From NCBI GenBank assembly GCA_012557565.1, contig GCA_012557565.1_3926.1: 64,000 nucleotides of DNA; one strand, written 5' to 3'. A model generated the notes under the pieces. It was not told where the DNA came from, ran no database searches, and saw only the letters and a program-made list of their open reading frames with translations. Each line of letters starts with the position of its first letter. Position 1 is the first letter of the stretch. This stretch comes from a phage. Positions 6,431-61,505 of the stretch are shown piece by piece. The position numbers were made by a program, and so were the translations under genes.

Positions 6431-7225
6431 ATGGGTATCGTAAAAATTATTAAAGGTGATATCTTTAAAGACTTTGATAATAAGAAGTTTGATATCATTG
6501 GTCACGGTTGTAACTGCATGAACTTAATGGGTGCAGGTATTGCAGCAACAATTGCTAAACGTTATCCAAAAGCTTATGAGACTGATGCTGAAGTTTATGC
6601 TACAGTTGGTGGTGAAGGTCATAAACCTAAGCATCTTATGCTTGGTAACATCTCTGTAGCACGTTTTAAGCAGGGTCGAATTGCTAACCTTTACACTCAG
6701 GTTATCACTGGTAAAGATGCACGATACAATGCTTTAGAAGCAGCTTTGCAGCGTCTTAATAACTACTGCAAAGTAAACCAGCTTAAGAAAGTTGGACTTC
6801 CTATGATTGGTGCAGGGATTGGTGGTCTTGATAGCATGGCTGTGCTGTCTATCATCAATCAGACCATGAAAGATGTTGACGTTTATATGTATGTCTATGA
6901 AGATAAGATGTACAGTCAGTTGACTAGTCCGGTTACTGGTTGGGAAAACTTTAGTGAACCTCAATACTTTGATGGTGTTGCCGTGGTAGGCAAGGATAAA
7001 GTTACTCTCAAGGTGAAGCGTAATGGTAAGGTACACACCAGTTACCCTCCGGTTGAGAAGTACAATCGAAGTAACGCTCAAGTTACCCACCCGTTACAAG
7101 GCCATTGTCACAGAGCCGTAACATTTGGTGATGATGCAAGTGTGTATATCGGTGCTGCTACAGAAGAGTTTGCAGAGGATTATATCACACATGAGAATGT
7201 TAACTATGTTGAAGCACGTAACTAA
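6431..7225 (+). CDS. macro-domain-like protein (putative ADP-ribose binding/hydrolase) with C-terminal extension
   Basis: N-terminal KGDIF...IIGHGCNCMNLMGAGIAATI and later LPMIGAGIGGL resemble macro-domain Gly-rich motifs; by-eye match only. Confidence 0.45.
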   Translation: MGIVKIIKGDIFKDFDNKKFDIIGHGCNCMNLMGAGIAATIAKRYPKAYETDAEVYATVGGEGHKPKHLMLGNISVARFKQGRIANLYTQVITGKDARYNALEAALQRLNNYCKVNQLKKVGLPMIGAGIGGLDSMAVLSIINQTMKDVDVYMYVYEDKMYSQLTSPVTGWENFSEPQYFDGVAVVGKDKVTLKVKRNGKVHTSYPPVEKYNRSNAQVTHPLQGHCHRAVTFGDDASVYIGAATEEFAEDYITHENVNYVEARN

Positions 7226-7240
7226 TAAGTTACCTAAATA

Positions 7241-7287
7241 GACATAGACAAGCCCTCCAAAGTTTGAGTTTAAAATCTCAGGTAAGG
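7241..7287 (+). terminator. rho-independent terminator (large loop)
   Basis: AGCCCTCC ... GGAGGGCT inverted repeat followed by TTTTT. Confidence 0.45.
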
Positions 7288-7480
7288 AGGGCTTTTTCAT
7301 TTCAAATTTGTGCAGGTGCAATTGCATAGAACTCTGGACAGATTTCTTTAGCTGAACTCCAAAGGGAAAATTCATTTTCAATTTGTGCAGGTCTAGACTC
7401 CAAAGGGCTTTTTCATTTTCAATCTGTGCAGATGCAGTTGGACTCCAAAGGGAAAATTCATTTTCAATTTGTGCAGGTAG
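7281..7480. repeat. four tandem direct repeats of a 36-bp unit (42-45 bp spacing) containing TGTGCAG
   Basis: Units near 7297, 7347, 7389, 7434: CTCCAAAGGG(AAAA/CTTT)TTCATTTTCAATTTGTGCAGG. Confidence 0.7.
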
Positions 7481-7651
7481 GTAGCTATAGGAAGCAAGAC
7501 CCACCATCCCCTCTTACTCCCCTTCCTCCCAAAAGTCAAGAGAAAAATTTGTAGAGAACTGAAAAATAATTCTTGACTAGTTTTCTGTTTTCTGTTAGTT
7601 GCGTACACGCGTTTCATTCACAACTTTCCAAAAATATTTTTAAAAATTTTG

Positions 7652-7680
7652 TTGACTCTATGAATCCAGTTTTGTAGTAT
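7652..7680 (+). promoter_or_regulatory. sigma70-like promoter
   Basis: TTGACT (7652-7657), 17-nt spacer, TAGTAT (7675-7680); AT-rich upstream. Confidence 0.55.
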
Positions 7681-7732
7681 TTGCATCAACGGGGCAAGCA
7701 AGCCCCAACAATCCTAAACTGGAGAATCTAAG

Positions 7733-7939
7733 ATGTTATATCAACGTGAATTAATGATTGTTGACAACAACAAAACAAAGAAACGCCGTTTTTATATGCT
7801 AATCTGCGACGTTTGGCAACGTATCTCAGAAAAGGATTTTGATAAATATGTTGATACGTCAATCAGGTCTGATTGTTACCTGACAAATCACACAAGACAA
7901 TTTACAAGACATACGGCAATTTATTACTATAACGTTTAA
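7733..7939 (+). CDS. hypothetical early protein
   Basis: 68-aa ORF directly behind conserved leader and promoter. Confidence 0.55.
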   Translation: MLYQRELMIVDNNKTKKRRFYMLICDVWQRISEKDFDKYVDTSIRSDCYLTNHTRQFTRHTAIYYYNV

Positions 7940-7950
7940 AGGGCTTGACA

Positions 7951-8112
7951 ATGATTAAAGAAGGTTATGTAATAAAGTACAAAGGGCAAGACGGATACAC
8001 AAAGTTGGGACGTGTTTTCTATCTCTATACTTCAGTGATGGGCAATGAGTGTATAGCCCTTACAAATGGCGACAAAATAACCATGAAAGATTTTATAAAA
8101 ATTATTTCATAA
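7951..8112 (+). CDS. hypothetical small protein (53 aa, not in ORF track)
   Basis: Hand-translated MIKEGYVIKYKGQDGYTKLG...; no conserved leader. Confidence 0.3.
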   Translation: MIKEGYVIKYKGQDGYTKLGRVFYLYTSVMGNECIALTNGDKITMKDFIKIIS

Positions 8113-8117
8113 AGTAC

Positions 8118-8146
8118 TTTACATGGGGTTTATAAATTGCTAGTAT
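8118..8146 (+). promoter_or_regulatory. sigma70-like promoter embedded in an inverted repeat (representative of several)
   Basis: TTTACA, 17-nt spacer, TAGTAT; arms TGGGGTTTATA / TATAAGCCCCA; near-identical copies near 8590, 8935, 9535, 10595. Confidence 0.5.
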
Positions 8147-8197
8147 AAGCCCCAGATAAAGAGCTTTACCAACAATCCTAAACTGGAGAATCTAAAA

Positions 8198-8578
8198 ATG
8201 AAATATCGTGCGCCTAAATTTATCAACAAAGAAAACTTTCGTGATGCTCTGGAAAATTCCATGAATGAGCAGTTCAAAGGTAAAATCATTGTTGTTCACG
8301 CTTACAATTTTAAGTATGATGTAAATGGTAACAAGATAAACCACTACACCGCTACAATGTTAGATGGTACACTCTCAGGAGAAAAGGCTATTATAAATGC
8401 ACTGGCTGGACGTGGTAAAACGTTAATCCGTTGCGATAAGCGCCGCTATCAAGGAAGTGCTTATGGTTATGAGGATGCAATCTATCATCTTGATAACATG
8501 GGTTACAACGTGGTAAAAGCTGGAGTATCTCAAATGATTGGCAGTGATGGCTATGTAACAATCTTTGAAATTAACTAA
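8198..8578 (+). CDS. hypothetical early protein
   Basis: 126-aa ORF behind conserved leader. Confidence 0.6.
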   Translation: MKYRAPKFINKENFRDALENSMNEQFKGKIIVVHAYNFKYDVNGNKINHYTATMLDGTLSGEKAIINALAGRGKTLIRCDKRRYQGSAYGYEDAIYHLDNMGYNVVKAGVSQMIGSDGYVTIFEIN

Positions 8579-8663
8579 TAAAGTACTTTACATGGGGTTT
8601 ATAGTTCGATAGGATAAGCCCCAGATAAAGAACTTTATCACTAACCTAAACTGGAGTTTTAAA

Positions 8664-8921
8664 ATGGCTACTATCAAAAATATCGTAATTACTGCAAAGT
8701 CCCGTGATGACGCTCGCGCAACTGCTAAAAAATTAAATGGCAAAGTGGTTGACAACGGAAAAGAATCTGCTGTAAGATGGGGTGTGAAGACAGACAAGAA
8801 ATTAACCCTTAAACATAGTTCTTACAACATGTTTAAAGGTGTGAAAACTATCGGTAACACTAACGTATTCACAAAGCAAGGTTACAAAATGCACTTATCA
8901 TTAACTGACAATTTAATCTGA
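8664..8921 (+). CDS. hypothetical early protein
   Basis: 85-aa ORF behind conserved leader. Confidence 0.6.
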   Translation: MATIKNIVITAKSRDDARATAKKLNGKVVDNGKESAVRWGVKTDKKLTLKHSSYNMFKGVKTIGNTNVFTKQGYKMHLSLTDNLI

Positions 8922-9012
8922 TAAAGTGCTTTACATGGGGTTTATAAGTTGTTAGTATAAGCCCCAGATAAAGAGCTTTACTAACCAATAGTCCTAAACT
9001 GGAGATTCTAAA

Positions 9013-9525
9013 ATGAAAACCACTGATGCTATTTTTGAAGTTGTAAAAGAAAAATACACCATTATTTATGCAGCAGTTAATTTCTATGAGCCTTCCCATT
9101 GTGTGGATAACTGGCAATTTACTGATGAGCATAAAGGAGGGATTACAATCAAAGTTAAGAATGCAGAACGTAACAGCTACAAATATGCAATCCCTACGCA
9201 TTACCCACTTTCACAGCTTGCCAGTGACTACGCAAAACAGGGAAGGGATAACCCATCATTGGAAGCTTACAAGAGCTTACAGGATGAGCTAGAAAGGGAT
9301 TTAGAAGCTAATAGTTATATCTTGTATGCCTCAGTAATTGACGCTGAAGGGAACACGGTTTTAAATAGTTTTTCTCTTGCGTACTCTTTTGATTGGTGCT
9401 ATCTTGACGGGGAAGATTTAGAGACACGTTTAGAAGAGGAAGTGTCGAACTCTGACGGGGAGACTGAAGTGATGGAACGTTTAGAAGCCTTGAAAGATTC
9501 AGTTATGAATATCTTTAATATCTAA
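9013..9525 (+). CDS. hypothetical early protein with acidic C-terminus
   Basis: 170-aa ORF behind conserved leader. Confidence 0.6.
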   Translation: MKTTDAIFEVVKEKYTIIYAAVNFYEPSHCVDNWQFTDEHKGGITIKVKNAERNSYKYAIPTHYPLSQLASDYAKQGRDNPSLEAYKSLQDELERDLEANSYILYASVIDAEGNTVLNSFSLAYSFDWCYLDGEDLETRLEEEVSNSDGETEVMERLEALKDSVMNIFNI

Positions 9526-9608
9526 AAGTGCTTTACATGGGGTTATCAAGTTGATAAGATAGCCCCAGATAAAGAGCTTTACCAACAATCCTAAACTGGA
9601 GAATCAAA

Positions 9609-9905
9609 ATGTTTATTGCCGCAAACGTTAGAACTAAATTAAGCCAACTATTAAACAACATTCAATTCATTGAATCTATGCGCCGTCAATCTGAAGCTGT
9701 AGAGTGGTATCATGGAAAGATTAACAAAAAAGAAGTAATAGTTTGTGTATGGAACTTTTGTAGAGAATACAAAAAGCCGTTGCTTCAGGTTGATATCTAT
9801 GATAACACTAACAAGTCATCGATTAAGACCACTAGAGATATGATTGATTCATATGAAATTAGTCACACTGGAAAATTATTTCACAAAGGCGTAAACAAAT
9901 GTTAA
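9609..9905 (+). CDS. hypothetical early protein
   Basis: 98-aa ORF behind conserved leader. Confidence 0.6.
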   Translation: MFIAANVRTKLSQLLNNIQFIESMRRQSEAVEWYHGKINKKEVIVCVWNFCREYKKPLLQVDIYDNTNKSSIKTTRDMIDSYEISHTGKLFHKGVNKC

Positions 9906-10246
9906 TCACATATACAGCTATTTTTATCTCTATTGTGGCGCTCTATAAAGCCTTTAAAGCGCATCAGTTAGCTAATAAGGCAATCACAAGGGATTTAAAA
10001 ATAAACCTTGTAAGGGGCTTTATAGAGCGTTTAAGCTTGGAACAATTGAAACGTTTAGAGATGAGCTTTCGATTTAAAGCGGAGACATACAGAATCGACA
10101 ACATTCTAGCAGGTGATTTTAAGCTAATTAGTGATTATGACATACTGTTAGAAGCAATTCAAGATATAAATTTAAAAGATTATTACATCGTAATAGCTCA
10201 AGAAATTAATAAAAAAGAGCTTGCAATGAAAAACCAAAACAAGTAA
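9899..10246 (+). CDS. hypothetical membrane protein
   Basis: 115-aa ORF with N-terminal hydrophobic helix; start overlaps upstream stop; 3' end carries promoter-like TTGCAA...TAAAGT. Confidence 0.5.
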   Translation: MLITYTAIFISIVALYKAFKAHQLANKAITRDLKINLVRGFIERLSLEQLKRLEMSFRFKAETYRIDNILAGDFKLISDYDILLEAIQDINLKDYYIVIAQEINKKELAMKNQNK

Positions 10247-10311
10247 AGTATTTATCAACGGGGAGGGAAAACTCCCCCACTAAGCAAAATTCCTAAACTG
10301 GAGAATCTAAA

Positions 10312-10584
10312 ATGTATACAACTAACAATGGTCATACCCTTAATGTAACTCTAAAGCACTATGTAGACGGTGTATTGAACTTTGAAGAGTTAAGAGCAGA
10401 ACAGCATTTATTAGACTGGCAAGTAGCAGGACTGCAAAAAACTGCTACGGGGTACGGTACAAAAATTCCTACATCTTGGAAAGTACGCTATTTAGGAAAG
10501 TTACGAAGAATTTATCAAGATGTTTATAGCAATAGTGGTGTAAGTTACATTATTGTTAACGGTAAAAAGTTGTATTTAGTCTAA
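10312..10584 (+). CDS. hypothetical early protein
   Basis: 90-aa ORF behind conserved leader. Confidence 0.6.
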   Translation: MYTTNNGHTLNVTLKHYVDGVLNFEELRAEQHLLDWQVAGLQKTATGYGTKIPTSWKVRYLGKLRRIYQDVYSNSGVSYIIVNGKKLYLV

Positions 10585-10672
10585 TAAATTGCTTTACATG
10601 GGGTTATCAGGTTGATAAGATAGCCCCAGATAAAGAGATTTATCTGACACTAACCTAAACTGGAGAATCAAA

Positions 10673-11080
10673 ATGACTACTATTAATCATAAAGAAGTTG
10701 CAATTCTGAAAGCACGTTTGACTATTAACCGTATCAACATTGTCACATCAGCAGCACCAGATGAAACATTGCATAATATTATTGGTAAAATTCAGGGTGT
10801 AGTAGTAGATGTAAAACAGATTAAAGAAGCTTTACAAGACGTAGCAGCGGGGGCTATAATTGACGGCGCACAATATGAAATGCAGGAAATGCTTTCAAAA
10901 TCTAGAGTAATGAATAAAGAATTAGACTTGAAGATGTTTCGATTTGCTGTTAAAGTATGGCTATGTGTTGATTTTGATGCTAACTTTGCAATAGCTGATT
11001 TCTTTGCTACATGGTTACAGCGTAATTTACCATCAGAAAAATTTCGTGAAATTTGCGATGCAATTTATTCAGAAATTTGA
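10673..11080 (+). CDS. hypothetical early protein
   Basis: 135-aa ORF behind conserved leader. Confidence 0.6.
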   Translation: MTTINHKEVAILKARLTINRINIVTSAAPDETLHNIIGKIQGVVVDVKQIKEALQDVAAGAIIDGAQYEMQEMLSKSRVMNKELDLKMFRFAVKVWLCVDFDANFAIADFFATWLQRNLPSEKFREICDAIYSEI

Positions 11081-11161
11081 TTGACACTGCAAAAACATAG
11101 TAGTAAAGTACACATCAACGGGGCAAGCAAGCCCCAACAATCCTAAACTGGAGAATCTAAA

Positions 11162-11719
11162 ATGAAATGCTTTCATGGTACTACTCAAGAAAACTTTTTA
11201 AACCTTATCAATGGCGGTGAAAAACCATCAGGGGCTTGGAATTGCTCTGATATGGATGGATGTTTTTACGTGTACCCTGTTAATAAGTTCTATGATGTAG
11301 AAAGTTTAGACGACGAACAAATCACAAACGAAGGTATTAGAAACGCGCTTGATAGCGCAAGCATTACAGCAGCGTATCAAATGAAGTCTCAAAAACTTGT
11401 TATCTTGGAACTTGACATTCCAGAGGAAGATTTACAAGATGACTGGAGTTGTGAGAATATGAGCGACGTTGCAAGCTTTACAGAATACTTTGATAAGGCA
11501 TGGATTAAAAAGATTTACACAACTGAATTTAACGCTATGTTTTCACCTTTCTTTGTTCCTAATCTGAATAACAAAAATTTGGGGTATATGCCTGACGAAC
11601 TACACAACATTGCAACAATGGTACAGCGTAGCGATGAAATGAATAATGTGTATATAGATATCTATGAATCTATGCACGAAAACGTAGCAGAAACGGCTTT
11701 AAGCGATTTAACAGCATAA
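11162..11719 (+). CDS. hypothetical early protein (acidic)
   Basis: 185-aa ORF behind conserved leader. Confidence 0.6.
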   Translation: MKCFHGTTQENFLNLINGGEKPSGAWNCSDMDGCFYVYPVNKFYDVESLDDEQITNEGIRNALDSASITAAYQMKSQKLVILELDIPEEDLQDDWSCENMSDVASFTEYFDKAWIKKIYTTEFNAMFSPFFVPNLNNKNLGYMPDELHNIATMVQRSDEMNNVYIDIYESMHENVAETALSDLTA

Positions 11720-11782
11720 ACTATAGAATCGTACCAGTTAACTAGAAAATCCCCGCATAGGGGCTTACAAGAGGCTTAAATA

Positions 11783-12013
11783 ATGCTTACAACAATCTAT
11801 CTTATCCTGTCTATTTGCAACGGCTCACAATGTGACTTCAAAGGATTAGAAGAGTTTACAGGAAGCGAAAACAATGCTATTGTAGCATGTCAGATAGCAA
11901 GGCAAGACTATCCCACATCGGATGATATACAGTGTTACTATAAATCAGAAGATGAGGAGGGGATTTACTTTGATAGTGTGAATGGTGAATATGAAATTCT
12001 TATTGAAAAGTAG
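11783..12013 (+). CDS. hypothetical small secreted/lipoprotein-like protein
   Basis: 76-aa ORF with N-terminal hydrophobic segment MLTTIYLILSICNGSQC; own SD AAGAGG; different leader. Confidence 0.45.
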   Translation: MLTTIYLILSICNGSQCDFKGLEEFTGSENNAIVACQIARQDYPTSDDIQCYYKSEDEEGIYFDSVNGEYEILIEK

Positions 12014-12100
12014 TTGACACTGGAAACGCAAACAAGTAAAGTATTTATCAACGGGGAGGGAATGACCTTCCCCAACAATCCTAAACTGGAGAATCTAAAA

Positions 12101-12442
12101 ATGGCATACGTAACAATTATCACTGATAAAGAAAACTCTTCTTGGTCTACACAAGTAAACGACAAAATGACACCTATGCAATGCCTCAAATACTTTGAGC
12201 AATGGAACAGGGGGGAAGATGTAAGTCCTTTCCAAGTAATGCAGGTTGTGCATGTTGACAATGAAGGGAACAAAACTACACTTAACACTGAATACTATGC
12301 TACACGTTTTGATACTCGCAAAGAAGCTATGCGGGAACTAAGAGAAAAGGGCTATAGTCACATTGCCGCTTTGATTTGGTCTGATTTGCTTAAAAAACAA
12401 GCATTAACCTATGTCAAGCCAGAAAAAATCTTTATAAGCTAA
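12101..12442 (+). CDS. hypothetical early protein (start trimmed from track 12014 to the leader ATG)
   Basis: Track ORF runs through the promoter and leader; the ATG at 12101 sits immediately behind the conserved leader. Confidence 0.55.
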   Translation: MAYVTIITDKENSSWSTQVNDKMTPMQCLKYFEQWNRGEDVSPFQVMQVVHVDNEGNKTTLNTEYYATRFDTRKEAMRELREKGYSHIAALIWSDLLKKQALTYVKPEKIFIS

Positions 12443-12640
12443 TCAATGACTTACAAAAATCTTTGAAAAAACTGTTGACAATACCCCTTGACATTGATAG
12501 ATTTGTTCGAGGGGGTTTATCTAAAGGGATTCACTTAAAAGATTCTTTATAGATAAGCTGAAAATTCTCTTGCAATGGGTTATCAAAATCTGTATAGTTT
12601 CAATCAAGCAATGAAACAATCCTAAACTGGAGAATCTAAG

Positions 12641-12778
12641 ATGTTAGAAGTCATTAAAAACCCTATCTTGTGTGGAATGATTGTATCTTTCGTTATTCCT
12701 TTTGGTCTTCTGATAGCAAGTGAAATTCAAGATTATTTCTTCAATAAAAAGCTTGCAATGACCAACAAAAACAAGTAA
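12641..12778 (+). CDS. hypothetical small membrane peptide (45 aa, not in ORF track)
   Basis: Conserved leader immediately upstream; hydrophobic core; C-terminus resembles that of ORF 9899-10246. Confidence 0.45.
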   Translation: MLEVIKNPILCGMIVSFVIPFGLLIASEIQDYFFNKKLAMTNKNK

Positions 12779-12840
12779 AGTACTTATCAACGGGGAAGGA
12801 TAGGACTTCCCCACTAAATCCTAAACTGGAGAATCTAAAA

Positions 12841-13368
12841 ATGAATAAGTTTCAAGCTATCAATCATATCCGTTCCAATGCCGTGATGAGCAAGCCAGTA
12901 AAAGACACTTTCGAATTTCGCTGCAATGACAAGTTGTTTGCAGTCATTACGAAAGGGGAGGATAAAAAATATTATGTACATCGCCAAAACGTTAAGGTAG
13001 TAACAGCAGATAACTTTATGCAAGCTGTTGCAACAATCCTCCCTGATTTTATGGCACTAGTCGCAGAACTTTGTGAACATTGCATCAAATCATCAAAAGA
13101 AGAGTTAAACCGCTTTAAAATGGCTTATGAGCGCTCTATCAAGTCCCATAACATGTATATCATGCCGTTGGCACATGGGATTATGGCGATGGGTACAGGT
13201 TGCCACCCTTGCAAGCTTTACGACGTAGAAAACATCTATCTAAGCGAGACAAAAGACAGTGATTTTAACTTACAGTTAGGGCAAGCATTGAATGATATGA
13301 TTAAACTACACGAAAAATCTGTAAAAGATATGGAAAAAGAGCTTGACGAAATCATCAGAACTCTATAA
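12841..13368 (+). CDS. hypothetical early protein
   Basis: 175-aa ORF behind conserved leader. Confidence 0.6.
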   Translation: MNKFQAINHIRSNAVMSKPVKDTFEFRCNDKLFAVITKGEDKKYYVHRQNVKVVTADNFMQAVATILPDFMALVAELCEHCIKSSKEELNRFKMAYERSIKSHNMYIMPLAHGIMAMGTGCHPCKLYDVENIYLSETKDSDFNLQLGQALNDMIKLHEKSVKDMEKELDEIIRTL

Positions 13369-13427
13369 AGTACTCATCAACGGGGAGGGAATGACCTTCC
13401 CCAACAATCCTAAACTGGAGACTAGAA

Positions 13428-13691
13428 ATGAATAACGCAGAAATCACTATCCTGTTACAGATTGGTACTGACAAAGAAGATATCCAACTTTGCAAACGTA
13501 TAGAAAGTGACTGGTTTAACGGTGAAATCATCGCAGAATCTTATGAAGTAGTTGGATTCATGAATGGTGAAATTGTAAGCCATTTCGGTTTAACTAAATC
13601 TGAAGCCGTTGCAAAGTATGACGTTTTATCTTGTGAGATTCTTACAAAATACAATGAAAAAAGACTTGCAACTTATGCAGCAATGAATTAA
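13428..13691 (+). CDS. hypothetical early protein
   Basis: 87-aa ORF behind conserved leader. Confidence 0.6.
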   Translation: MNNAEITILLQIGTDKEDIQLCKRIESDWFNGEIIAESYEVVGFMNGEIVSHFGLTKSEAVAKYDVLSCEILTKYNEKRLATYAAMN

Positions 13692-13756
13692 TATTACTTT
13701 CAACGGGGAGGGAATGACCTTCCCCACTAAACAACCCTAAACTGGAGACTTAAAAG

Positions 13757-13933
13757 ATGAATTTTGAACAGCGTATGATTGCAAAATTTGGTGCTAAACG
13801 TTGGGAAGAAATGAAAAAAGAGCATGAAGAAAAGAAAAATGAAGAGATGGTAGTCATCACTGGTACAGACTTGTTAAATCATTCAGTTACTAACTACATC
13901 ATTTCCGGTAACTCTTACAAGAAAGTGATTTAA
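13757..13933 (+). CDS. hypothetical small protein (58 aa, not in ORF track)
   Basis: Conserved leader variant upstream; hand-translated MNFEQRMIAKFGAKRWEEMKK... Confidence 0.4.
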   Translation: MNFEQRMIAKFGAKRWEEMKKEHEEKKNEEMVVITGTDLLNHSVTNYIISGNSYKKVI

Positions 13934-14009
13934 AGTATTGACAAGGGGGCTTCAAAGCCCCTACTATAGAGACTCAATAAACAATAATCCTAAACTGGAG
14001 ATTCTAAAA

Positions 14010-14258
14010 ATGGCAACTATCCGCGCAACTGTTAACAATTTTGGTTTTTATGCTCTGGACGTTAAGTTTGACATGGTAAACACTGGAAATGCTTTTGATA
14101 TGGTTGATATGTGTCTGAAAGCAACTGTGAAAGAATACAACCCTGCTGAATGGTTCTGGAAAGAAACGAAAGAGGAGATTTTAGCAAATGGCGTTTTATC
14201 TTACTATTGGGGCGATTCTCTTATCTCTATCTATTACGATAAAGAAGGCCGCAACTAA
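14010..14258 (+). CDS. hypothetical early protein (start trimmed from track 13938)
   Basis: ATG at 14010 behind conserved leader; promoter with hairpin in spacer at about 13938-13970. Confidence 0.55.
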   Translation: MATIRATVNNFGFYALDVKFDMVNTGNAFDMVDMCLKATVKEYNPAEWFWKETKEEILANGVLSYYWGDSLISIYYDKEGRN

Positions 14259-14300
14259 CAAGACGCCGCAACGGGGCAAATAGCCCCAGACACCTTTACA

Positions 14301-14321
14301 GCCCCTTCAATGGGGCTTTTT
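14301..14321 (+). terminator. rho-independent terminator ending the early array
   Basis: GCCCC-TTCAAT-GGGGC hairpin followed by TTTTT. Confidence 0.6.
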
Positions 14322-14699
14322 GACGTCTATACAGAACCCTTCCTAGAATCTTACCAGACCTTTAGAATAATAACTCTATAGCTTACTCTATATCATCTTA
14401 TCAAGTCAACTAACTTTTCCCTTAAATATAAGCCCATAACCCGAAAGGGAAGGGCAATCCCTAAAACGCCCTAAAACGCTCTATACGGGCTTATCATCTC
14501 ATCTTAAGCAATCATATTAACCACTTCTTAAAAGCCCTTTATAGAGCTTTCTAGAGCCTTAAAAGAATCTTATAAGGGGTATAAGCTTTATTATCTCGTT
14601 AGTATCTTGTGAATAGTTAAACAGGGGCTTGATAATAGCTTCAAAGTATGCTATGGAGTCTAAAAAGAGCTTAAAAGTAACGTAAAAGTTAGCCCCCTT

Positions 14700-15200
14700 T
14701 ACATTCTCTTAACAAAATCTTAACAAATGCAACATAGTTATGCTTGTTAGCCCCTTGTTAAATCCTTGTTAGTGGTATGTTAAGAGCTTGTTAGACACTT
14801 TGAAGTCCCTGTATAAGCCCCTGTAAAGGGCTATAAAGAGCTATATAGTCAGTTGGGCTATAGATACTAGTAAGAACCTTAGAAGAGGTCACACAGAGCT
14901 ATACAGGGCTTTTAAGAGGTATGTTTAGAGAATCACTGAGAGGGATAGGGAACGATAAGAGAAGAGATAGTGACCATGTTAATAGATTGTTAAACATGTT
15001 AAGAACTTAATAGACACTTGTTAATAATCTTAACAAAATAACTTTTAAATTTAACATGTTAGGGACTTGTTAGCATCTTGTTAGAACCTTGTAAGAACTG
15101 TTAAGCACTTGTTACACCCTTGTTAGTTCTGTTAAGAAACTGTTAAGAACTTTAGAGACTTGTTAGGGACTTGTTAGAGTTGTAAAGAAATTGTTAATGA
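14700..15200. repeat. cluster of short phased repeats (CTTGTTAG / CTGTTAAG and inverse TTAACAA), about 10-12 bp apart
   Basis: 15 or more copies of TTGTTA(G/A) or TGTTAAG, densest at 15055-15180; no ORF over 60 aa. Confidence 0.7.
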
Positions 15201-15265
15201 TATTTTAAGATTTTGCAAAGGGGATGTTACAGGGCTGTTAAGGGCTACTAAGCAGATATACATCC

Positions 15266-15289
15266 ATGAGGTAGATTCTACCGAATCCA
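15266..15289. repeat. 24-bp element ATGAGGTAGATTCTACCGAATCCA, copy 1
   Basis: Near-identical second copy at 15889-15912; each contains an internal palindrome. Confidence 0.6.
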
Positions 15290-15589
15290 CTAGTAGATAT
15301 TTTTCAGATTCTCCCAAGAACCTAAAAAGTGACCTACCTAGTCTATTTTATAAAAATTTTATAGAACTGAATAACTATCTATACACTATCTTATATAAAA
15401 CAGGAATTAACAGGCTTATAAGATATCTTGTTAGTAACGTGTTAGACCTTGTAGGATAAGCCTTAGAAGGGAATACCTGTTTAGTGTTATATAACAGTCT
15501 ATATAGAGGCTTAGTAATCCCTAGTGATTCTGCTATATAGGGTACTATCTTGGACATAATGGGTTACTGTTAAGTAACACAGATAACCT

Positions 15590-15790
15590 AGAGATTAAGA
15601 TGGGTATAGGGGCTTCTAAGGGGCTAGGAAGAGGTTAGGAAGGTGATTGTATAGGGTTGATTAATGGTAGGCTTAGAAGGCTTTATAGAGGGCTATATAG
15701 AGAGCACTATTTAGGGACTAAGAGGCTATATAGATACTATATAATACTATATAGAGATGATGCTTAGAGAGGGTGTTTAGAAGGGTATAG
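15590..15790. repeat. second short-repeat cluster (GGCTATATAGAG-like and CTTAGAAGG-like motifs)
   Basis: Repeated CTATATAG and TTAGAAGG words; further copies near 14840, 15461, 15500, 15530. Confidence 0.6.
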
Positions 15791-15888
15791 ATATTTTATC
15801 ACATATCATGGTGACCCAAGATGAACGGAGTGAATCCCAAATTTTATAAAAATATAAATTTCGTAAATTTTACTCAATAAAAACCCCT

Positions 15889-15912
15889 ATGAGATAGATT
15901 CTATCGAATCCA
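15889..15912. repeat. 24-bp element ATGAGATAGATTCTATCGAATCCA, copy 2
   Basis: Matches copy 1 at 22 of 24 positions; lies just beyond the 3' end of minus-strand CDS 15933-16604. Confidence 0.6.
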
Positions 15913-15932
15913 TTTTAAGGGGCTGTATAGTC

Positions 15933-16604
15933 TTACATCAATTCACTAAGCATGGCTTGCAATGAAGTTTTAGAAGTCTGGAAGAAGTGTGTGAACCCAT
16001 TATGACGTTCTCTTACCTGAATCATTATCTGGTCACCCTTAATCGGGTGTGAACTAATATGGTATTCATTCATGTTCAGTACAACACCCAAACCATCTAT
16101 AATGTGTCTGAGTATGTCATATTCAACAAATTCTTCTTTACCTGTGACCTTGATACAAACACCTTTGTTGGTTCTCTTAGGGTTTATATCTTCCATAACC
16201 AGCATTTGTTGTCCACCAAGAGAAATCATAGAGAACTCTTTACGGTTCTGCTGCTTAACATACATCTCAAGTTTCTTCAAAGTATCTTCAAAGAACGGAT
16301 AAGATTTCTTGACAAAGATACCTTCAAGTGGCTCTTTACCTGAATCTTCTCGTTCCATCTTAAGTCGATTAACAAGTAATTCTAAAGACCACTTCTCACT
16401 TTCATCAAGATATGTATTGATATCATCTAGACTCAGTACCAGATACTTTCTTTCAAGTTCAAACTTTTTCATCTCTATCAAATCCTTAAAACATTTCTTA
16501 GTAATTGCTTCCCATTCTTCGGAGTTCTTTCTCTTCCTCTTCAGATGGGGAACCATATCTGTTAAGTTCTTCCAACTCTTCTTCAGTAGGTGTCCCATAA
16601 TCAC
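15933..16604 (-). CDS. hypothetical protein
   Basis: 223-aa ORF; last gene of the minus-strand block. Confidence 0.55.
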   Translation of the reverse strand: MIMGHLLKKSWKNLTDMVPHLKRKRKNSEEWEAITKKCFKDLIEMKKFELERKYLVLSLDDINTYLDESEKWSLELLVNRLKMEREDSGKEPLEGIFVKKSYPFFEDTLKKLEMYVKQQNRKEFSMISLGGQQMLVMEDINPKRTNKGVCIKVTGKEEFVEYDILRHIIDGLGVVLNMNEYHISSHPIKGDQIMIQVRERHNGFTHFFQTSKTSLQAMLSELM

Positions 16605-37275: not shown

Positions 37276-37306
37276 TTAATAATAAGACATTCTGGAGAAT
37301 TTTACA

Positions 37307-38410
37307 ATGTTGACTAATTCTGAAAAAAGCAGATTTTTCCTTGCTGATTTAACTGGTGAAGTCCAGTCTATTCCAAATACTTACGGATATATCTCTGGTC
37401 TGGGACTGTTCCGTTCTGCTCCACAAACACAGACTACTTTCCTGATGGACTTGACTGATTGGGATATTAGCTTGCTGGATGCGGTAGACCGTACTAGCCG
37501 TAAAGCTGAGACTAGCGCTCCTGAGCGTGTTCGTCAGATTAGCTTCCCAATGATGTACTTCAAGGAAGTTGAAAGCATTACTCCTGATGAGATTCAGGGT
37601 GTTCGTCAGCCAGGCACTGCAAATGAACTGACTACTGAAGCAGTTGTACGTGCTAAGAAGCTGATGAAGATTCGTACCAAGTTCGATATTACTCGTGAGT
37701 TCCTGTTCATGCAAGCTCTGAAGGGTAAAGTTATTGATGCTAACGGTGTTCTGTACGCAGACCTGTACAAGCAGTTCGATGTAACTAAGAAGACTATCTA
37801 CTTCGACTTGGACAACCCGAACTCTGATATCGATGCACATATTGAAGACCTGCGTATGCACATGGAAGATGAAGCTAAGACAGGTACTGTAATCAACGGT
37901 GAAGAAATTCACATCGTTGTTGACAGAACTTTCTTCAGTAAGCTTATCAAGCATCCTAAGATTCGTGACGCATACCTTGCACAGCAGACTCCGCTGGCTT
38001 GGCAACAGATTACTGGTTCTCTGAGAACTGGTGGTACTGATGGTGTTCAGGCTCACATGAACCGCTTCTACTACGGTGGTGTTGTATTCGTACAGTACAA
38101 CGGTAAGTTCAAAGACAAGCGTGGTAAGACTCATACTCTGGTTAGCATTGACGGTGTATCTGATACTAATGTTGGTGTAGGTCACGCATTCCCTAACGTA
38201 GCAATGTTGGGTGAAGCTAACAACATCTTCGAAGTTGCTTACGCTCCATGTCCTAAGATGGGTTATGCAAACACTCTGGGTCAGGAACTGTATGTGTTCG
38301 AATATGAGAAAGACCGTGACGAAGGTATTGACTTCGAAGCCCACTCTTACATGCTGCCATACTGCACACGTCCTCAACTGCTTGTTGACGTTCGTTCAGA
38401 CGCTGAGTAA
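37307..38410 (+). CDS. major capsid protein (putative)
   Basis: 367-aa ORF after protease/scaffold and decoration-like genes; codon usage looks like a highly expressed gene; no motif verified. Confidence 0.55.
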   Translation: MLTNSEKSRFFLADLTGEVQSIPNTYGYISGLGLFRSAPQTQTTFLMDLTDWDISLLDAVDRTSRKAETSAPERVRQISFPMMYFKEVESITPDEIQGVRQPGTANELTTEAVVRAKKLMKIRTKFDITREFLFMQALKGKVIDANGVLYADLYKQFDVTKKTIYFDLDNPNSDIDAHIEDLRMHMEDEAKTGTVINGEEIHIVVDRTFFSKLIKHPKIRDAYLAQQTPLAWQQITGSLRTGGTDGVQAHMNRFYYGGVVFVQYNGKFKDKRGKTHTLVSIDGVSDTNVGVGHAFPNVAMLGEANNIFEVAYAPCPKMGYANTLGQELYVFEYEKDRDEGIDFEAHSYMLPYCTRPQLLVDVRSDAE

Positions 38411-58272: not shown

Positions 58273-58572
58273 TTAATCTGCCAGCCTTAAGTTAAAATTT
58301 ACACCAAGTTTTGTACAAGCATTAAGCATGTACTCTAAAGAAATCTTTTGAGGGTCGTTAATGATATTTGACACACGACTCTGTGAGATTTCACAAACAG
58401 TTGCTACTTGAGCCTGAGAAAGTTTTAGCTTCTCAATCTCTTTAGAGAATCTGAAAGATACAAAGTCTTTCATCTCTTCTATATCCATTGGACAGATATA
58501 ACTCTCCATTTCAGCCTCTCTATCAGCCTCCCAAGAATCTTGAGGTGCATATGGGTCAAAGACTTCATTCAT
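58273..58572 (-). CDS. helix-turn-helix (XRE-like) DNA-binding protein
   Basis: Segment LKLSQAQVATVCEISQSRVSNIIN resembles the Cro/C1-type HTH. Confidence 0.5.
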   Translation of the reverse strand: MNEVFDPYAPQDSWEADREAEMESYICPMDIEEMKDFVSFRFSKEIEKLKLSQAQVATVCEISQSRVSNIINDPQKISLEYMLNACTKLGVNFNLRLAD

Positions 58573-61277: not shown

Positions 61278-61505
61278 TCAATAAAATAAGTCTGAAGCTT
61301 TTGGAGATTCATTAAAGATACTCCATCCAGTTTTCTGCCAAGGTTCCCCCTTGTACCATGCAGCCATTGGGTAACCCATTTCACATACAACCTTTCCATC
61401 TTTCATTTCAAAGAACTCATCAGATGTGAAATTTTCATTTCGAACTTTCTTGCCCTGTTTCATAGCTTCGAGAGCTTCTTCGTATGTCATTTTTGGTGTC
61501 TCCAA
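61278..61505 (-). CDS. hypothetical protein
   Basis: 75-aa ORF. Confidence 0.45.
   Translation of the reverse strand: METPKMTYEEALEAMKQGKKVRNENFTSDEFFEMKDGKVVCEMGYPMAAWYKGEPWQKTGWSIFNESPKASDLFY

What the first reader, a model, noticed from the sequence alone, without database searches (positions are those of the whole stretch)
7703..14012. Conserved leader extends well beyond a Shine-Dalgarno: possible shared post-transcriptional control site
A ribosome-binding site needs only GGAG plus spacing, yet about 25 nt (ATCCTAAACTGGAGAATCTAAAATG) are conserved across 14 genes with unrelated coding sequences. That implies selection for a sequence-specific factor such as a translational repressor or an SD-cleaving endoribonuclease; T4 RegB, which cuts within GGAG of early mRNAs, is the precedent. 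A single factor could then switch the whole array on or off.
Basis: inference. Interest (0 to 1): 0.5.

Follow-up and report, generated by a model that had tools for sequence, protein, structure and literature searches.

The report
Repeated early-gene leader in Felix O1-like phage
Fourteen unrelated early genes of a Felix O1-like phage each start with the same promoter-hairpin-leader cassette, whose 12-base core around the ribosome-binding site never varies; the repeat was already noted in a related phage, its function is untested, and no RegB-like nuclease was found.

Summary
CCTAAACTGGAG occurs 14 times, all on the + strand between 7713 and 14000. Each copy lies 7-9 nt before the ATG of one of 14 mutually unrelated small ORFs, and there is no copy elsewhere in the 64 kb.

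The window is a Felix O1-like myophage (Ounavirinae, Mooglevirus/Suspvirus-like). The leader is the 3' end of a ~90-110-bp cassette made of a sigma70-like promoter, a GGGG..CCCC stem-loop and a 5'UTR. These cassettes closely resemble the PeSL cassettes of T4-type phages, and gene insertions and deletions between relatives have their junctions inside the leader.

The repeat was already reported in the phage Mordin genome announcement as "reminiscent of start-associated sequences" of cluster K mycobacteriophages, with its role unknown.

New here:
- The 12-nt core is 96-100% identical at orthologous sites where third codon positions are 55-84% identical.
- The core can form a 3-4-bp mini-hairpin that pairs the Shine-Dalgarno GGA with the upstream (U)CC.
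- That pairing is kept in variant forms in Felixounavirus and in Erwinia phages.

The RegB analogy is weak. No RegA or RegB homologue was detected, the Erwinia relatives have AGGAA instead of GGAG, and the conserved part lies 5' of GGAG.

Best reading: a standardised translation-initiation module that also serves as the homology patch for cassette shuffling. A dedicated trans-acting factor is not excluded.

The parts
7652..7735 (+). Cassette 1: promoter TTGACT-17-TAGTAT (7652-7680), stem-loop GGGGCAAGCAAGCCCC (7691-7706), core CCTAAACTGGAG (7713-7724), ATG 7733 (68-aa ORF)
8118..8200 (+). Cassette 2 (type A): promoter TTTACA-17-TAGTAT with stem-loop 8125-8153 between the -35 and -10 hexamers, conserved CAGATAAAGAGCTTTAC, core 8177-8188, ATG 8198 (126 aa)
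8587..8666 (+). Cassette 3 (type A): promoter 8587-8615, stem-loop 8594-8622, core 8645-8656 (followed by TTTTAAA), ATG 8664 (85 aa)
8930..9015 (+). Cassette 4 (type A): promoter 8930-8958, stem-loop 8937-8965, core 8993-9004, ATG 9013 (170 aa)
9532..9611 (+). Cassette 5 (type A): promoter 9532-9560, stem-loop 9539-9566, core 9590-9601, ATG 9609 (98 aa)
10221..10314 (+). Cassette 6 (type B): promoter TTGCAA-17-TAAAGT (10221-10249) lying inside the 3' end of the upstream ORF, 5' stem-loop 10260-10278, core 10292-10303, ATG 10312 (90 aa)
   Evidence: (family D4)
10593..10675 (+). Cassette 7 (type A): promoter 10593-10621, stem-loop 10600-10627, core 10654-10665, ATG 10673 (135 aa)
11081..11164 (+). 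Cassette 8 (type B): promoter TTGACA-17-TAAAGT (11081-11109), stem-loop 11120-11135, core 11142-11153, ATG 11162 (185 aa). Recombination junction relative to Mordin, phiSUSP1, Sf19, Silverhawkium and EcSzw-2
12014..12103 (+). Cassette 9 (type B): promoter 12014-12042, stem-loop 12053-12073, core 12080-12091, ATG 12101 (113 aa). Homology breakpoints at 12072-12103
12570..12643 (+). Cassette 10: promoter TTGCAA-17-TATAGT (12570-12598), no GC stem-loop, core 12621-12632, ATG 12641 (45-aa membrane-like ORF). This gene plus the next cassette is absent from phiSUSP1 and Moogle
12753..12843 (+). Cassette 11 (type B): promoter 12753-12781 inside the end of the upstream ORF, stem-loop 12792-12812, core 12820-12831, ATG 12841 (175 aa)
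13343..13430 (+). Cassette 12 (type B): promoter 13343-13371, stem-loop 13382-13402, core 13409-13420, ATG 13428 (87 aa)
13666..13759 (+). Cassette 13 (type B): promoter TTGCAA-17-TAATAT (13666-13694), stem-loop 13705-13725, core 13736-13747, ATG 13757 (58 aa)
13938..14012 (+). Cassette 14: promoter TTGACA-18-TACTAT (13938-13967) with stem-loop 13945-13961 inside it, core 13989-14000, ATG 14010 (82 aa, last gene of the array, ends at 14258)

Best explanation
The 14 leaders are the 3' ends (5'UTR plus ribosome-binding site) of PeSL-like early regulatory cassettes. These cassettes precede each orphan gene in the hyperplastic early region of a Felix O1-like (Ounavirinae) phage.

Cassette anatomy. 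Each cassette has a host-type sigma70 promoter and a GGGG..CCCC stem-loop, placed either inside the promoter or at the 5' end of the transcript. An A/C-rich unstructured linker follows, then the invariant core CCUAAACUGGAG, an A-rich 7-9-nt spacer and AUG.

Inferred mechanism. The core is a cis-acting part of a standardised translation-initiation region read by the host ribosome. Its (U)CC pairs with the GGA of the Shine-Dalgarno to form a weak 3-4-bp hairpin with loop UAAACU, flanked by single-stranded A-rich sequence. Every early gene therefore gets the same initiation context whatever its coding sequence.

Second role. Because the same ~26-30 nt sit in front of every gene, they also act as the homology patch where recombination adds, removes or swaps gene cassettes. 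That recombination in turn helps keep the copies identical.

What is shown and what is inferred. Shown: the anatomy, the hyper-conservation, the leader-bounded indels, and the pairing potential kept in variants. Inferred: that the hairpin forms in vivo, that it tunes or protects initiation, and that no dedicated factor is required.
For: - Identity of the window: Felix O1-like phage, with best matches to phiSUSP1, Moogle, ESh19/22 and the Sf phages.
- Promoters and stem-loops: all 14 copies have a promoter-like site with a 17-nt spacer (one with 18) ending 21-42 nt 5' of the core. Thirteen of 14 have a G-run/C-run stem-loop, 6 between the -35 and -10 hexamers and 7 after the -10. The predicted transcripts fold into that 5' hairpin (type B) plus an otherwise open leader.
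- Match to PeSLs: this fits the published description of PeSLs, in which an upstream stop codon, a sigma70 promoter and a GGGG..CCCC stem-loop in variable position are followed by the SD and ATG at the 3' end, next to ORFans in hyperplastic regions (PMC2839356).
- Cassette spread: type B cassettes reach into the upstream ORF, so unrelated proteins share the C-terminus K(E/K)LAM(K/T)N(Q/K)NK (family D4).
- Recombination: 17 of 32 distinct homology breakpoints against nine relatives fall in leader windows that make up 8.4% of the array. Two worked examples show chimeric junctions inside the leader. These are window gene 11162 against Mordin 7654/7987, and phiSUSP1 gene 11884 against window genes 12641/12841.
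- Constraint: orthologous identity of the core is 0.96-1.00. It is 0.55-0.84 for codon position 3, 0.84-0.97 for position 2, 0.81-0.92 for the rest of the cassette and 0.57-0.92 for the 8 nt just upstream. Among 209 distinct leaders sampled without conditioning on the core, only a few core forms occur.
- Hairpin: it is predicted in every form, with dG from -0.3 to -3.9 kcal/mol. Felixounavirus allele CCUUAAACUAGGAG equals the window form plus an inserted U.A pair. In Erwinia phages CCUU/AAGG alternates with CCUC/GAGG. T precedes the core in 116/134 three-pair forms but only 22/41 forms that carry the extra inner pair. Mean pairing probability of the SD GG is 0.84 against 0.48 for composition-preserving shuffles, and 0 of 200 shuffle replicates reach the observed mean.
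- Distribution and timing: the motif is confined to the array in the window and to ORF15-23 in the complete Felix O1 genome. In Felix O1, ORFs 16, 20, 21 and 22 peak 5 min after infection (PMC3185647).
Against: - A purely ribosome-level function does not obviously require an invariant loop UAAACU in about 190 leaders. Generic A/U-rich enhancers tolerate variation.
- A hairpin that pairs the SD should lower initiation, not raise it.
- The hairpin is tiny. About 13% of three-pair forms lack the outer U.A pair, and three Erwinia-phage leaders do not form it.
- SD guanines of ordinary genes in the window are already predicted to be paired with probability 0.53, against 0.75 for the array.
- The variants are related by descent, so the shuffle test overstates independence.
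- Homology breakpoints are expected to fall at any conserved island flanked by unrelated genes. Their clustering therefore does not prove that crossovers occur there.
- No extended complementarity to 16S rRNA was found, so how the extra bases would act on the ribosome is unexplained.
- Stem-loop terminator activity, a PeSL property, could not be shown. No T-run follows the stems.
Confidence: 0.55

Rival explanations
1. The core is the operator of a dedicated trans-acting factor. This would be a phage-encoded (or hijacked host) RNA-binding protein, small RNA or endoribonuclease. It would recognise the hairpin/loop plus SD and switch translation or stability of the whole early set on or off.
For: - A discrete 12-nt element is invariant while both flanks vary, in about 120 copies from nine phages and in 134 + 41 + 12 distinct leaders. 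It is more conserved than codon position 2.
- It is asymmetric, always in one orientation, and restricted to one temporal and functional gene set.
- Its consensus differs between genera, CCTAAACTGGAG against CCCTTATAAAGGAAT, as expected for co-evolution with a phage-specific partner.
- The 3' part GGAGAAUCUAA matches 9 of 11 positions of the RegB/S1 consensus GGAGRAYARAA.
- The formally similar SAS elements are also suspected to bind a factor (PMC3203893).
Against: - No candidate factor was found. There were no RegB_T4 or RegA Pfam hits and no PDB RegA/RegB sequence hits in the early region, and no Rfam family.
- No antisense copy of the motif occurs in the window at up to 2 mismatches in 12.
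- RegB needs single-stranded GGAG and has no 5' determinant. Here GGA is predicted to be paired and the 5' part is the invariant one.
- GGAG is not kept in Kolesnikvirus.
- Two or three core alleles coexist in single Felixounavirus genomes.
- Felix O1 RT-PCR does not show uniform timing: ORFs 17, 19 and 23 peak at 25 min.
Confidence: 0.25
2. There is no special function. The leader is an ordinary SD context that looks conserved only because the cassettes are recent copies of one another and are continually homogenised by recombination (concerted evolution).
For: - Whole cassettes are repeated, not only the leader.
- Leader-bounded indels and chimeric junctions show that the copies recombine.
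- The consensus drifts in concert between genera. In Kolesnikvirus the core is only 0.91 conserved between orthologues.
- CTGGAGAAT also serves as an ordinary SD context for the major capsid gene.
Against: - The conservation profile is a sharp step. The 12 nt are at about 100% while the 8 nt immediately upstream are at 57-92% and the rest of the cassette at 81-92%. Conversion tracts would be expected to blur this boundary.
- The core is identical in copies whose upstream and downstream contexts are unrelated (12621, 13989). Homogenisation would therefore have to act on tracts of roughly 12-30 nt.
- Paired changes keep the stem.
- The architecture persists between phages of Erwinia and of E. 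coli, which differ at most synonymous sites.
Confidence: 0.12
3. The element acts on DNA. It would be a binding site for a phage transcription regulator (roadblock or operator downstream of each early promoter), or for a recombinase or nuclease that targets cassette exchange in an integron-like way.
For: - Each copy lies 21-42 bp downstream of an early promoter.
- The phage encodes an Xre-type HTH protein (58273-58572, minus strand).
- Cassette boundaries coincide with the element.
- The PeSL authors speculated about a specific DNA-binding protein.
Against: - The site is asymmetric with no dyad.
- Its distance to the promoter varies by 21 bp, while its distance to the ATG is fixed.
- It contains the SD itself.
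- Sequence changes between lineages keep RNA pairing, which a DNA site would not require.
- No integrase or recombinase family hit was found among the proteins scanned.
Confidence: 0.08

Closest known systems
PeSL (promoter-early stem-loop) regulatory cassettes of T4-type phages (Arbiol et al. 2010, PMC2839356; Comeau et al. 2014, PMC4122927)
   Same: - Intergenic composite elements of about 100 bp in a hyperplastic early region.
- Each has an upstream stop codon, a sigma70-like promoter, and a GGGG..CCCC stem-loop either between the -35 and -10 hexamers or after the -10. The SD and ATG form the 3' end.
- They flank small ORFans.
- Indels between related phages have their junctions inside the cassette, between the -10 and the ATG.
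   Different: - The host phage belongs to Ounavirinae, not to the T4-type phages.
- The stems are not followed by T-runs, so terminator function is unproven.
- Most importantly, the published PeSL description read here does not report an invariant 12-nt block around the SD, whereas this block is the best-conserved part of the cassette here.
- Mini-circles were not tested.
Start-associated sequences (SAS) of cluster K mycobacteriophages (Pope et al. 2011, PMC3203893)
   Same: - A short asymmetric repeat (13 bp there, 12-13 nt here) that contains the SD core and lies a few bases before the ATG.
- Present in 11-19 copies per genome (14 here), in one orientation, only in the non-structural half, and before genes with long upstream gaps.
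- Conserved positions that cannot pair with 16S rRNA.
- Often preceded by inverted repeats.
- Function still unknown in 2025 (PMC12699233).
- The Mordin genome announcement already drew this parallel for the same repeat (PMC4611695).
   Different: - Unrelated sequence: GGGATAGGAGCCC against CCTAAACTGGAG.
- Different phage and host lineage.
- In SAS the GGG/CCC ends would place the SD in a loop, whereas here the SD forms the 3' arm of the stem.
- SAS-bearing phages are mostly temperate siphophages.
T4 RegB/S1 cleavage sites in early mRNAs (Durand et al. 2006, PMC1702504)
   Same: GGAG in the SD of early genes, followed by an A-rich stretch. GGAGAAUCUAA matches 9 of 11 positions of GGAGRAYARAA.
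   Different: - RegB sites have no conserved 5' part and must be single-stranded.
- No regB homologue was detected.
- The homologous leaders of the Erwinia phages have GGAA, which T4 RegB cuts very poorly.
Host-takeover module of Bacillus phage SPO1 and similar early-gene arrays with uniform strong promoters and ribosome-binding sites (own knowledge, not checked here)
   Same: A run of small early genes, each with its own strong host-type promoter and a stereotyped ribosome-binding site.
   Different: No invariant non-SD block is known to me for those arrays, and no comparison was made here.

Membership tests
PeSL-type regulatory cassette | Strong sigma70-like promoter in each intergenic cassette | tested here: met
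   14/14 copies have a TTGACA-like hexamer, a 17-nt spacer (one with 18) and a TAnnnT hexamer. Eleven of 14 pass the stricter consensus scan. Promoter activity was not measured.
PeSL-type regulatory cassette | polyG..polyC stem-loop inside or next to the promoter, in variable position | tested here: met
   13/14 cassettes have one: 6 between the -35 and -10 hexamers and 7 downstream of the -10.
PeSL-type regulatory cassette | The stem-loop acts as a terminator or attenuator | tested here: inconclusive
   No intrinsic-terminator-like site was found on the + strand in 7200-14500, because no T-run follows the stems. Attenuation cannot be tested in silico.
PeSL-type regulatory cassette | Located in a hyperplastic region, flanking ORFans, with cassette-bounded indels between close relatives | tested here: met
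   The 17 array proteins are mutually unrelated and of unknown function. Gene content differs between relatives, with junctions in the leader.
PeSL-type regulatory cassette | Formation of cassette mini-circles during infection | not testable with these tools
   Needs inverse PCR on infected cells.
PeSL-type regulatory cassette | Carried by a T4-type phage | tested here: not met
   The window is an Ounavirinae phage. It is therefore described as PeSL-like, not as a member.
Start-associated sequence (SAS), cluster K mycobacteriophages | Short asymmetric repeat containing the SD core, 3-8 nt from the start codon, in one orientation and many copies | tested here: met
   14 copies, all on the + strand, 7-9 nt from GGAG to ATG.
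Start-associated sequence (SAS), cluster K mycobacteriophages | Restricted to non-structural genes that have long upstream gaps | tested here: met
   Present only in the early array, and absent from about 100 other gene starts in the window and from the rest of Felix O1.
Start-associated sequence (SAS), cluster K mycobacteriophages | Consensus GGGATAGGAGCCC with at most 2 mismatches | tested here: not met
   The core here is CCTAAACTGGAG. It is an analogue, not a member.
Start-associated sequence (SAS), cluster K mycobacteriophages | Essentially absent from the host genome | tested here: inconclusive
   The 31-nt leader has no match at E<=10 in 5,426 complete E. coli genomes. The 12-mer alone could not be counted with these tools.
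T4 RegB/S1 target site | A regB endoribonuclease gene in the phage | tested here: not met
   No RegB_T4 Pfam hit at E<=0.05 in about 65 window proteins or in 20 Felix O1 proteins from 63-86 kb. No PDB RegB hit at E<=1 for the 29 early-region proteins. Remote structural homologues were not excluded.
T4 RegB/S1 target site | Single-stranded 11-nt site GGAGRAYARAA | tested here: inconclusive
   9-10 of 11 positions match. However, GGA is predicted to be paired with probability 0.87.
T4 RegB/S1 target site | GGAG (or GGAU) kept in homologous sites of related phages | tested here: not met
   Kolesnikvirus leaders have AAGGAA, CAGGAA or GAGGAA.
T4 RegB/S1 target site | Cleavage between G and A of GGAG in vivo | not testable with these tools
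   Needs 5'-end mapping of RNA from infected cells.
T4 RegA translational operator | A regA gene and an AU-rich operator overlapping the AUG | tested here: not met
   No RegA family or PDB hit. The invariant block ends 7-9 nt before the AUG, and the bases around the AUG vary.

The most novel reading that the evidence does not exclude
The 12-nt core, a mini-hairpin with loop UAAACU whose 3' arm is the Shine-Dalgarno, is a regulon-wide translational operator. It would be read by a so far unrecognised phage-encoded (or captured host) RNA-binding factor that times or protects translation of the whole early accessory-gene set. It would be the enterobacterial counterpart of the unexplained mycobacteriophage SAS, in a phage-host pair (E. 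coli and Mooglevirus/Suspvirus) where it can be dissected easily.
Probability: 0.25. Interest if true: 0.7.

Novelty: new variant of a known kind. Interest (0 to 1): 0.4.

Why it matters
If the core is only a standard initiation module and recombination linker, the finding extends PeSL-type modular shuffling from T4-type phages to Ounavirinae. It would also explain why the accessory-gene array of these widely used therapeutic and typing phages is so mosaic.

If a factor reads it, a whole class of "start-associated" repeats, unexplained since 2011, would gain a tractable E. coli model. The 30-nt leader would then be a compact, portable control element for phage engineering.

In practice the motif marks true start codons. 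For example, the annotated start of Felix O1 ORF19 sits inside the cassette hairpin and is probably wrong.

Tried and rejected
- **Extended pairing with 16S rRNA.** The best duplexes of the leader or its parts with E. coli rrsH are no better than those of shuffled sequences; the fraction of shuffles at least as good is 0.27-0.99. Rejected.
- **RegB or RegA homologue.** Pfam scans of concatenated early and middle proteins of the window, and of Felix O1 hypothetical proteins from the part of the genome outside the window, gave nothing. A PDB sequence search of the early region also gave nothing. Only Macro, HTH_3, a weak Tad2-like hit and some DUFs appeared. The Serglycin hits are artefacts of my GS linkers.
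- **Known RNA family.** Rfam at gathering threshold found only 24 tRNAs. A permissive scan of 7200-16000 found nothing credible.
- **Antisense RNA to the leader.** No reverse-complement copy exists in the window.
- **Mimicry of a host leader.** The leader has no match in 5,426 E. coli genomes.
- **Wider sampling through the macro-domain protein in IMG/VR.** This returned only six close relatives. Pseudomonas Otagovirus and Pakpunavirus relatives have ordinary AGGAG sites and no cassette repeat.
- **Formal covariation count.** MAFFT did not put the variants in structural register. I used per-sequence folding and a shuffle control instead.
- **RNase III sites and intrinsic terminators.** I considered these as explanations of the GC stems. 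The stems are too short (about 5-10 bp) for RNase III, and they lack T-runs.
- **Transcriptome data.** No transcriptome paper for Felixounavirus was found in the library.

Full report
**1. What is there**

The shorter CTAAACTGGAG occurs 14 times between 7714 and 14001 and nowhere else in the 64 kb. When the copies are aligned on GGAG, the block CCTAAACTGGAG is invariant in 14/14. The 7 nt upstream (consensus CAACAAT) and the spacer A(A/T)TC(T)AAA are only partly conserved.

Each copy lies 7-9 nt before the ATG of an ORF of 45-185 aa. The 17 proteins of the array have no pairwise similarity. Ten that were tested belong to ten different PHROG families of unknown function, and none has a Pfam domain. 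The strictly conserved part is 12 nt. The repetition also continues upstream into whole cassettes.

**2. Context**

The window is a Felix O1-like myophage (Ounavirinae). The array region is 98% identical to phiSUSP1 over its first half and 91% identical to Moogle and Mijalis. The structural region is 94-95% identical to Shigella phages of the genus Mooglevirus.

The array follows rIIA, rIIB, polynucleotide kinase, the spanins and a macro-domain gene (6431-7225). It ends at 14258, before a 1.6-kb non-coding gap. It corresponds to ORF15-23 of Felix O1.

**3. Anatomy of the cassettes**

All 14 leaders are preceded by a sigma70-like promoter with a 17-nt spacer (18 nt in one case). The promoter ends 21-42 nt upstream of the core. 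Thirteen of the 14 have a G-run/C-run stem-loop.

- Type A cassettes (five copies) place the stem-loop between the -35 and -10 hexamers, followed by CAGATAAAGAGCTTTAC. The last cassette (13938-14012) also has its stem-loop between the -35 and -10 hexamers but lacks that box.
- Type B cassettes (seven copies) place the stem-loop after the -10, where it becomes a 5'-terminal hairpin of the transcript.
- Type B promoters lie inside the end of the upstream ORF, so unrelated proteins share a C-terminal peptide (family D4).

The core keeps a fixed distance to the ATG and a variable distance to the promoter.

**4. Already noted in the literature**

[quoted passage not shown] The GenBank record marks it as repeat_region features.

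SAS are 13-bp elements (GGGATAGGAGCCC) lying 3-7 bp before start codons of non-structural genes (PMC3203893). Their function was still untested in 2025 (PMC12699233). The Felix O1 genome paper does not mention the repeat.

**5. Distribution**

The 31-nt leader matches 226 phage records at about 1,100 places. Nearly all are Escherichia, Shigella, Salmonella or Citrobacter phages of the Felix O1 group.

In nine related genomes I found about 120 copies whose core is invariant while both flanks vary. A sample not conditioned on the core was taken downstream of the type A box CAGATAAAGAGCTTT in IMG/VR contigs and in the loci already fetched. It gave 209 distinct leaders:

| Core form | Distinct leaders |
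|---|---|
| CCTAAACTGGAG | 134 |
| CCTTAAACTAGGAG | 41 |
| CCTAAATTGGAG | 12 |
| Erwinia-phage forms (e.g. CCTTATAAAGGAA) and rare single variants | 22 |

Felixounavirus genomes carry two or three of these forms side by side.

Erwinia phages phiEa21-4 and M7 (Kolesnikvirus) have the same cassette architecture, including the type A box. Their leader consensus, however, is CAAACAACCCTTATAAAGGAATCAAAAC or CCTTAAACAGGAATCAAAA. More distant Pseudomonas relatives lack the system.

**6. Constraint**

I aligned the window's array to eight relatives and scored identity by site class.

| Site class | Orthologous identity |
|---|---|
| 12-nt core | 0.96-1.00 |
| Codon position 3 | 0.55-0.84 |
| Codon position 2 | 0.84-0.97 |
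| Rest of the cassette | 0.81-0.92 |
| 8 nt just upstream of the core | 0.57-0.92 |
| SD-to-ATG spacer | 0.75-0.94 |

The core is the most conserved sequence in the region, and its boundary is sharp. Between the two Kolesnikvirus species the core is looser: 0.91 against 0.72 for codon position 3.

**7. Recombination**

Local BLAST of the array against nine relatives gives 32 distinct homology breakpoints. Seventeen of them fall in leader windows that make up 8.4% of the array.

Two junctions were inspected:
- The window's gene 11162 has the coding sequence of Mordin's gene 7987 but the promoter and hairpin that in Mordin precede an extra gene (7654).
- phiSUSP1's gene 11884 has the promoter of the window's gene 12641 fused, at the leader, to the orthologue of the window's gene 12841.

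This is the pattern described for PeSL cassettes of T4-type phages, where crossovers were mapped between the -10 and the ATG (PMC2839356). One caveat applies: breakpoints must fall at conserved islands when the neighbouring genes are unrelated. The clustering is therefore consistent with crossovers in the leader but does not prove them.

**8. A small RNA structure**

Folding of ten predicted transcripts places the same 3-bp hairpin in every leader: UCC-UAAACU-GGA. It pairs the first three bases of the SD.

All variant cores fold in the same way:
- The Felixounavirus allele is UCCU-UAAACU-AGGA, that is, the same hairpin with one U.A pair inserted.
- The Erwinia forms are CCUU-AUA-AAGG, CCUC-AAA-GAGG (a compensated C.G against U.A) and CCU-UAAAC-AGG.

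Three further observations bear on the hairpin:
- The base before CC is T in 116/134 three-pair forms but in only 22/41 forms that have the extra inner pair.
- Across 21 variant leaders the mean probability that the SD GG is paired to the upstream arm is 0.84. It is 0.48 when the upstream part is shuffled, and 0 of 200 shuffle replicates reach the observed mean.
- The array leaders are otherwise less structured than other starts in the window. The minimum free energy over -20..+20 is -2.0 against -3.3 kcal/mol.

The limits are real. The stem is tiny. Some copies have only two pairs, and three Erwinia leaders do not form the hairpin. SD guanines of ordinary genes are already predicted to be paired at 0.53. 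The variants are also not independent. I treat the hairpin as a moderately supported hypothesis.

**9. Tests of the RegB/RegA idea and other mechanisms**

- T4 RegB/S1 sites are 11 nt of single-stranded RNA, GGAGRAYARAA, with no upstream determinant, and GGAA is cut very poorly (PMC1702504).
- The leader matches 9-10 of the 11 positions. Its invariant extra bases, however, are 5' of GGAG, its GGA is predicted to be paired, and the Erwinia homologues have GGAA.
- No RegB_T4 or RegA family hit was found in about 65 window proteins or in 20 Felix O1 proteins from the part of the genome outside the window. No RegA or RegB chain was found by PDB sequence search.
- No Rfam family covers the leader. 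There is no antisense copy, no unusual complementarity to 16S rRNA and no match in E. coli genomes.
- Felix O1 RT-PCR places ORFs 16, 20, 21 and 22 at 5 min and ORFs 17, 19 and 23 at 25 min. This is compatible with early host-polymerase transcription but is not a uniform switch.

**10. Verdict**

The element is best described as the invariant, SD-embedding 3' end of PeSL-like early-gene cassettes in Ounavirinae. It is an analogue of mycobacteriophage SAS.

I consider it most likely (0.55) a cis-acting, standardised translation-initiation module that also serves as the recombination linker for cassette shuffling. The rivals are:
- a dedicated trans-acting factor (0.25), which is the main rival and the most interesting reading;
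- pure concerted evolution (0.12);
- a DNA-level site (0.08).

The repeat itself is already in the literature. Three things appear to be new: the hyper-conservation profile, the link to PeSL-type shuffling, and the conserved SD-pairing hairpin. None of them is experimentally tested.

Noticed in passing
window 14743-15445 (+), within the non-coding gap 14259-15932: About 17 copies of CTTGTTAG-like 8-mers phased at 11 nt (TRF: 15057-15179, period 11, 11.7 copies). They lie between the end of the early array and the minus-strand gene block. The pattern is iteron-like and could mark an origin or a packaging/terminal region.
   Followed up: partly
window 7275-7478: Four copies of a ~43-nt repeat (ACTCCAAAGGGAAAATTCATTTTCAATTTGTGCAGGT) lie between the macro-domain gene and the first early promoter. 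They overlap a minus-strand ORF (7094-7507). Felix O1 terminator t13 lies at the equivalent place.
   Followed up: no
window 8153-8170, 8622-8639, 8965-8982, 9566-9583, 10627-10644 (type A cassettes): The box CAGATAAAGAGCTTTAC at the predicted transcription start contains the inverted repeat TAAAG-ag-CTTTA. It is conserved even in the Erwinia phages, better across genera than the SD leader itself. It could be an operator (an HTH_3 protein is encoded at 58273-58572 on the minus strand) or a 5'-end RNA element.
   Followed up: partly
window 10211-10246 and 12743-12778: Two unrelated proteins end in the same peptide, K(E/K)LAM(K/T)N(Q/K)NK. The reason is that the -35 to -10 part of the type B cassette lies inside the 3' end of the upstream ORF, and the stop codon sits in the -10 hexamer TAAAGT.
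   Followed up: partly
L002 (Felix O1, NC_005282) 9983: The annotated start of Felix O1 ORF19 lies inside the cassette hairpin (atcaacggggaggga ATG). A leader with CCTTAAACTAGGAG and an ATG follows about 45 nt downstream and is the likelier start.
   Followed up: partly
window 24358-25773 (+): A 471-aa protein with DUF7788 and DUF2828 domains lies directly upstream of the cluster of 24 tRNA genes (25.9-31.2 kb). Its Felix O1 ORF42 homologue is called 'RNA-binding protein' in RefSeq.
   Followed up: no
window 61278-61490 (-): A 70-aa protein gives a weak Thoeris anti-defence Tad2-like Pfam hit (E = 3.5e-4, below the gathering score).
   Followed up: no
window 37288-37309 (+): The major capsid gene start (cattCTGGAGAATtttaca ATG) shares CTGGAGAAT with the early leader but lacks the upstream CCTAAA. 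The same is seen in Felix O1 ORF58.
   Followed up: no
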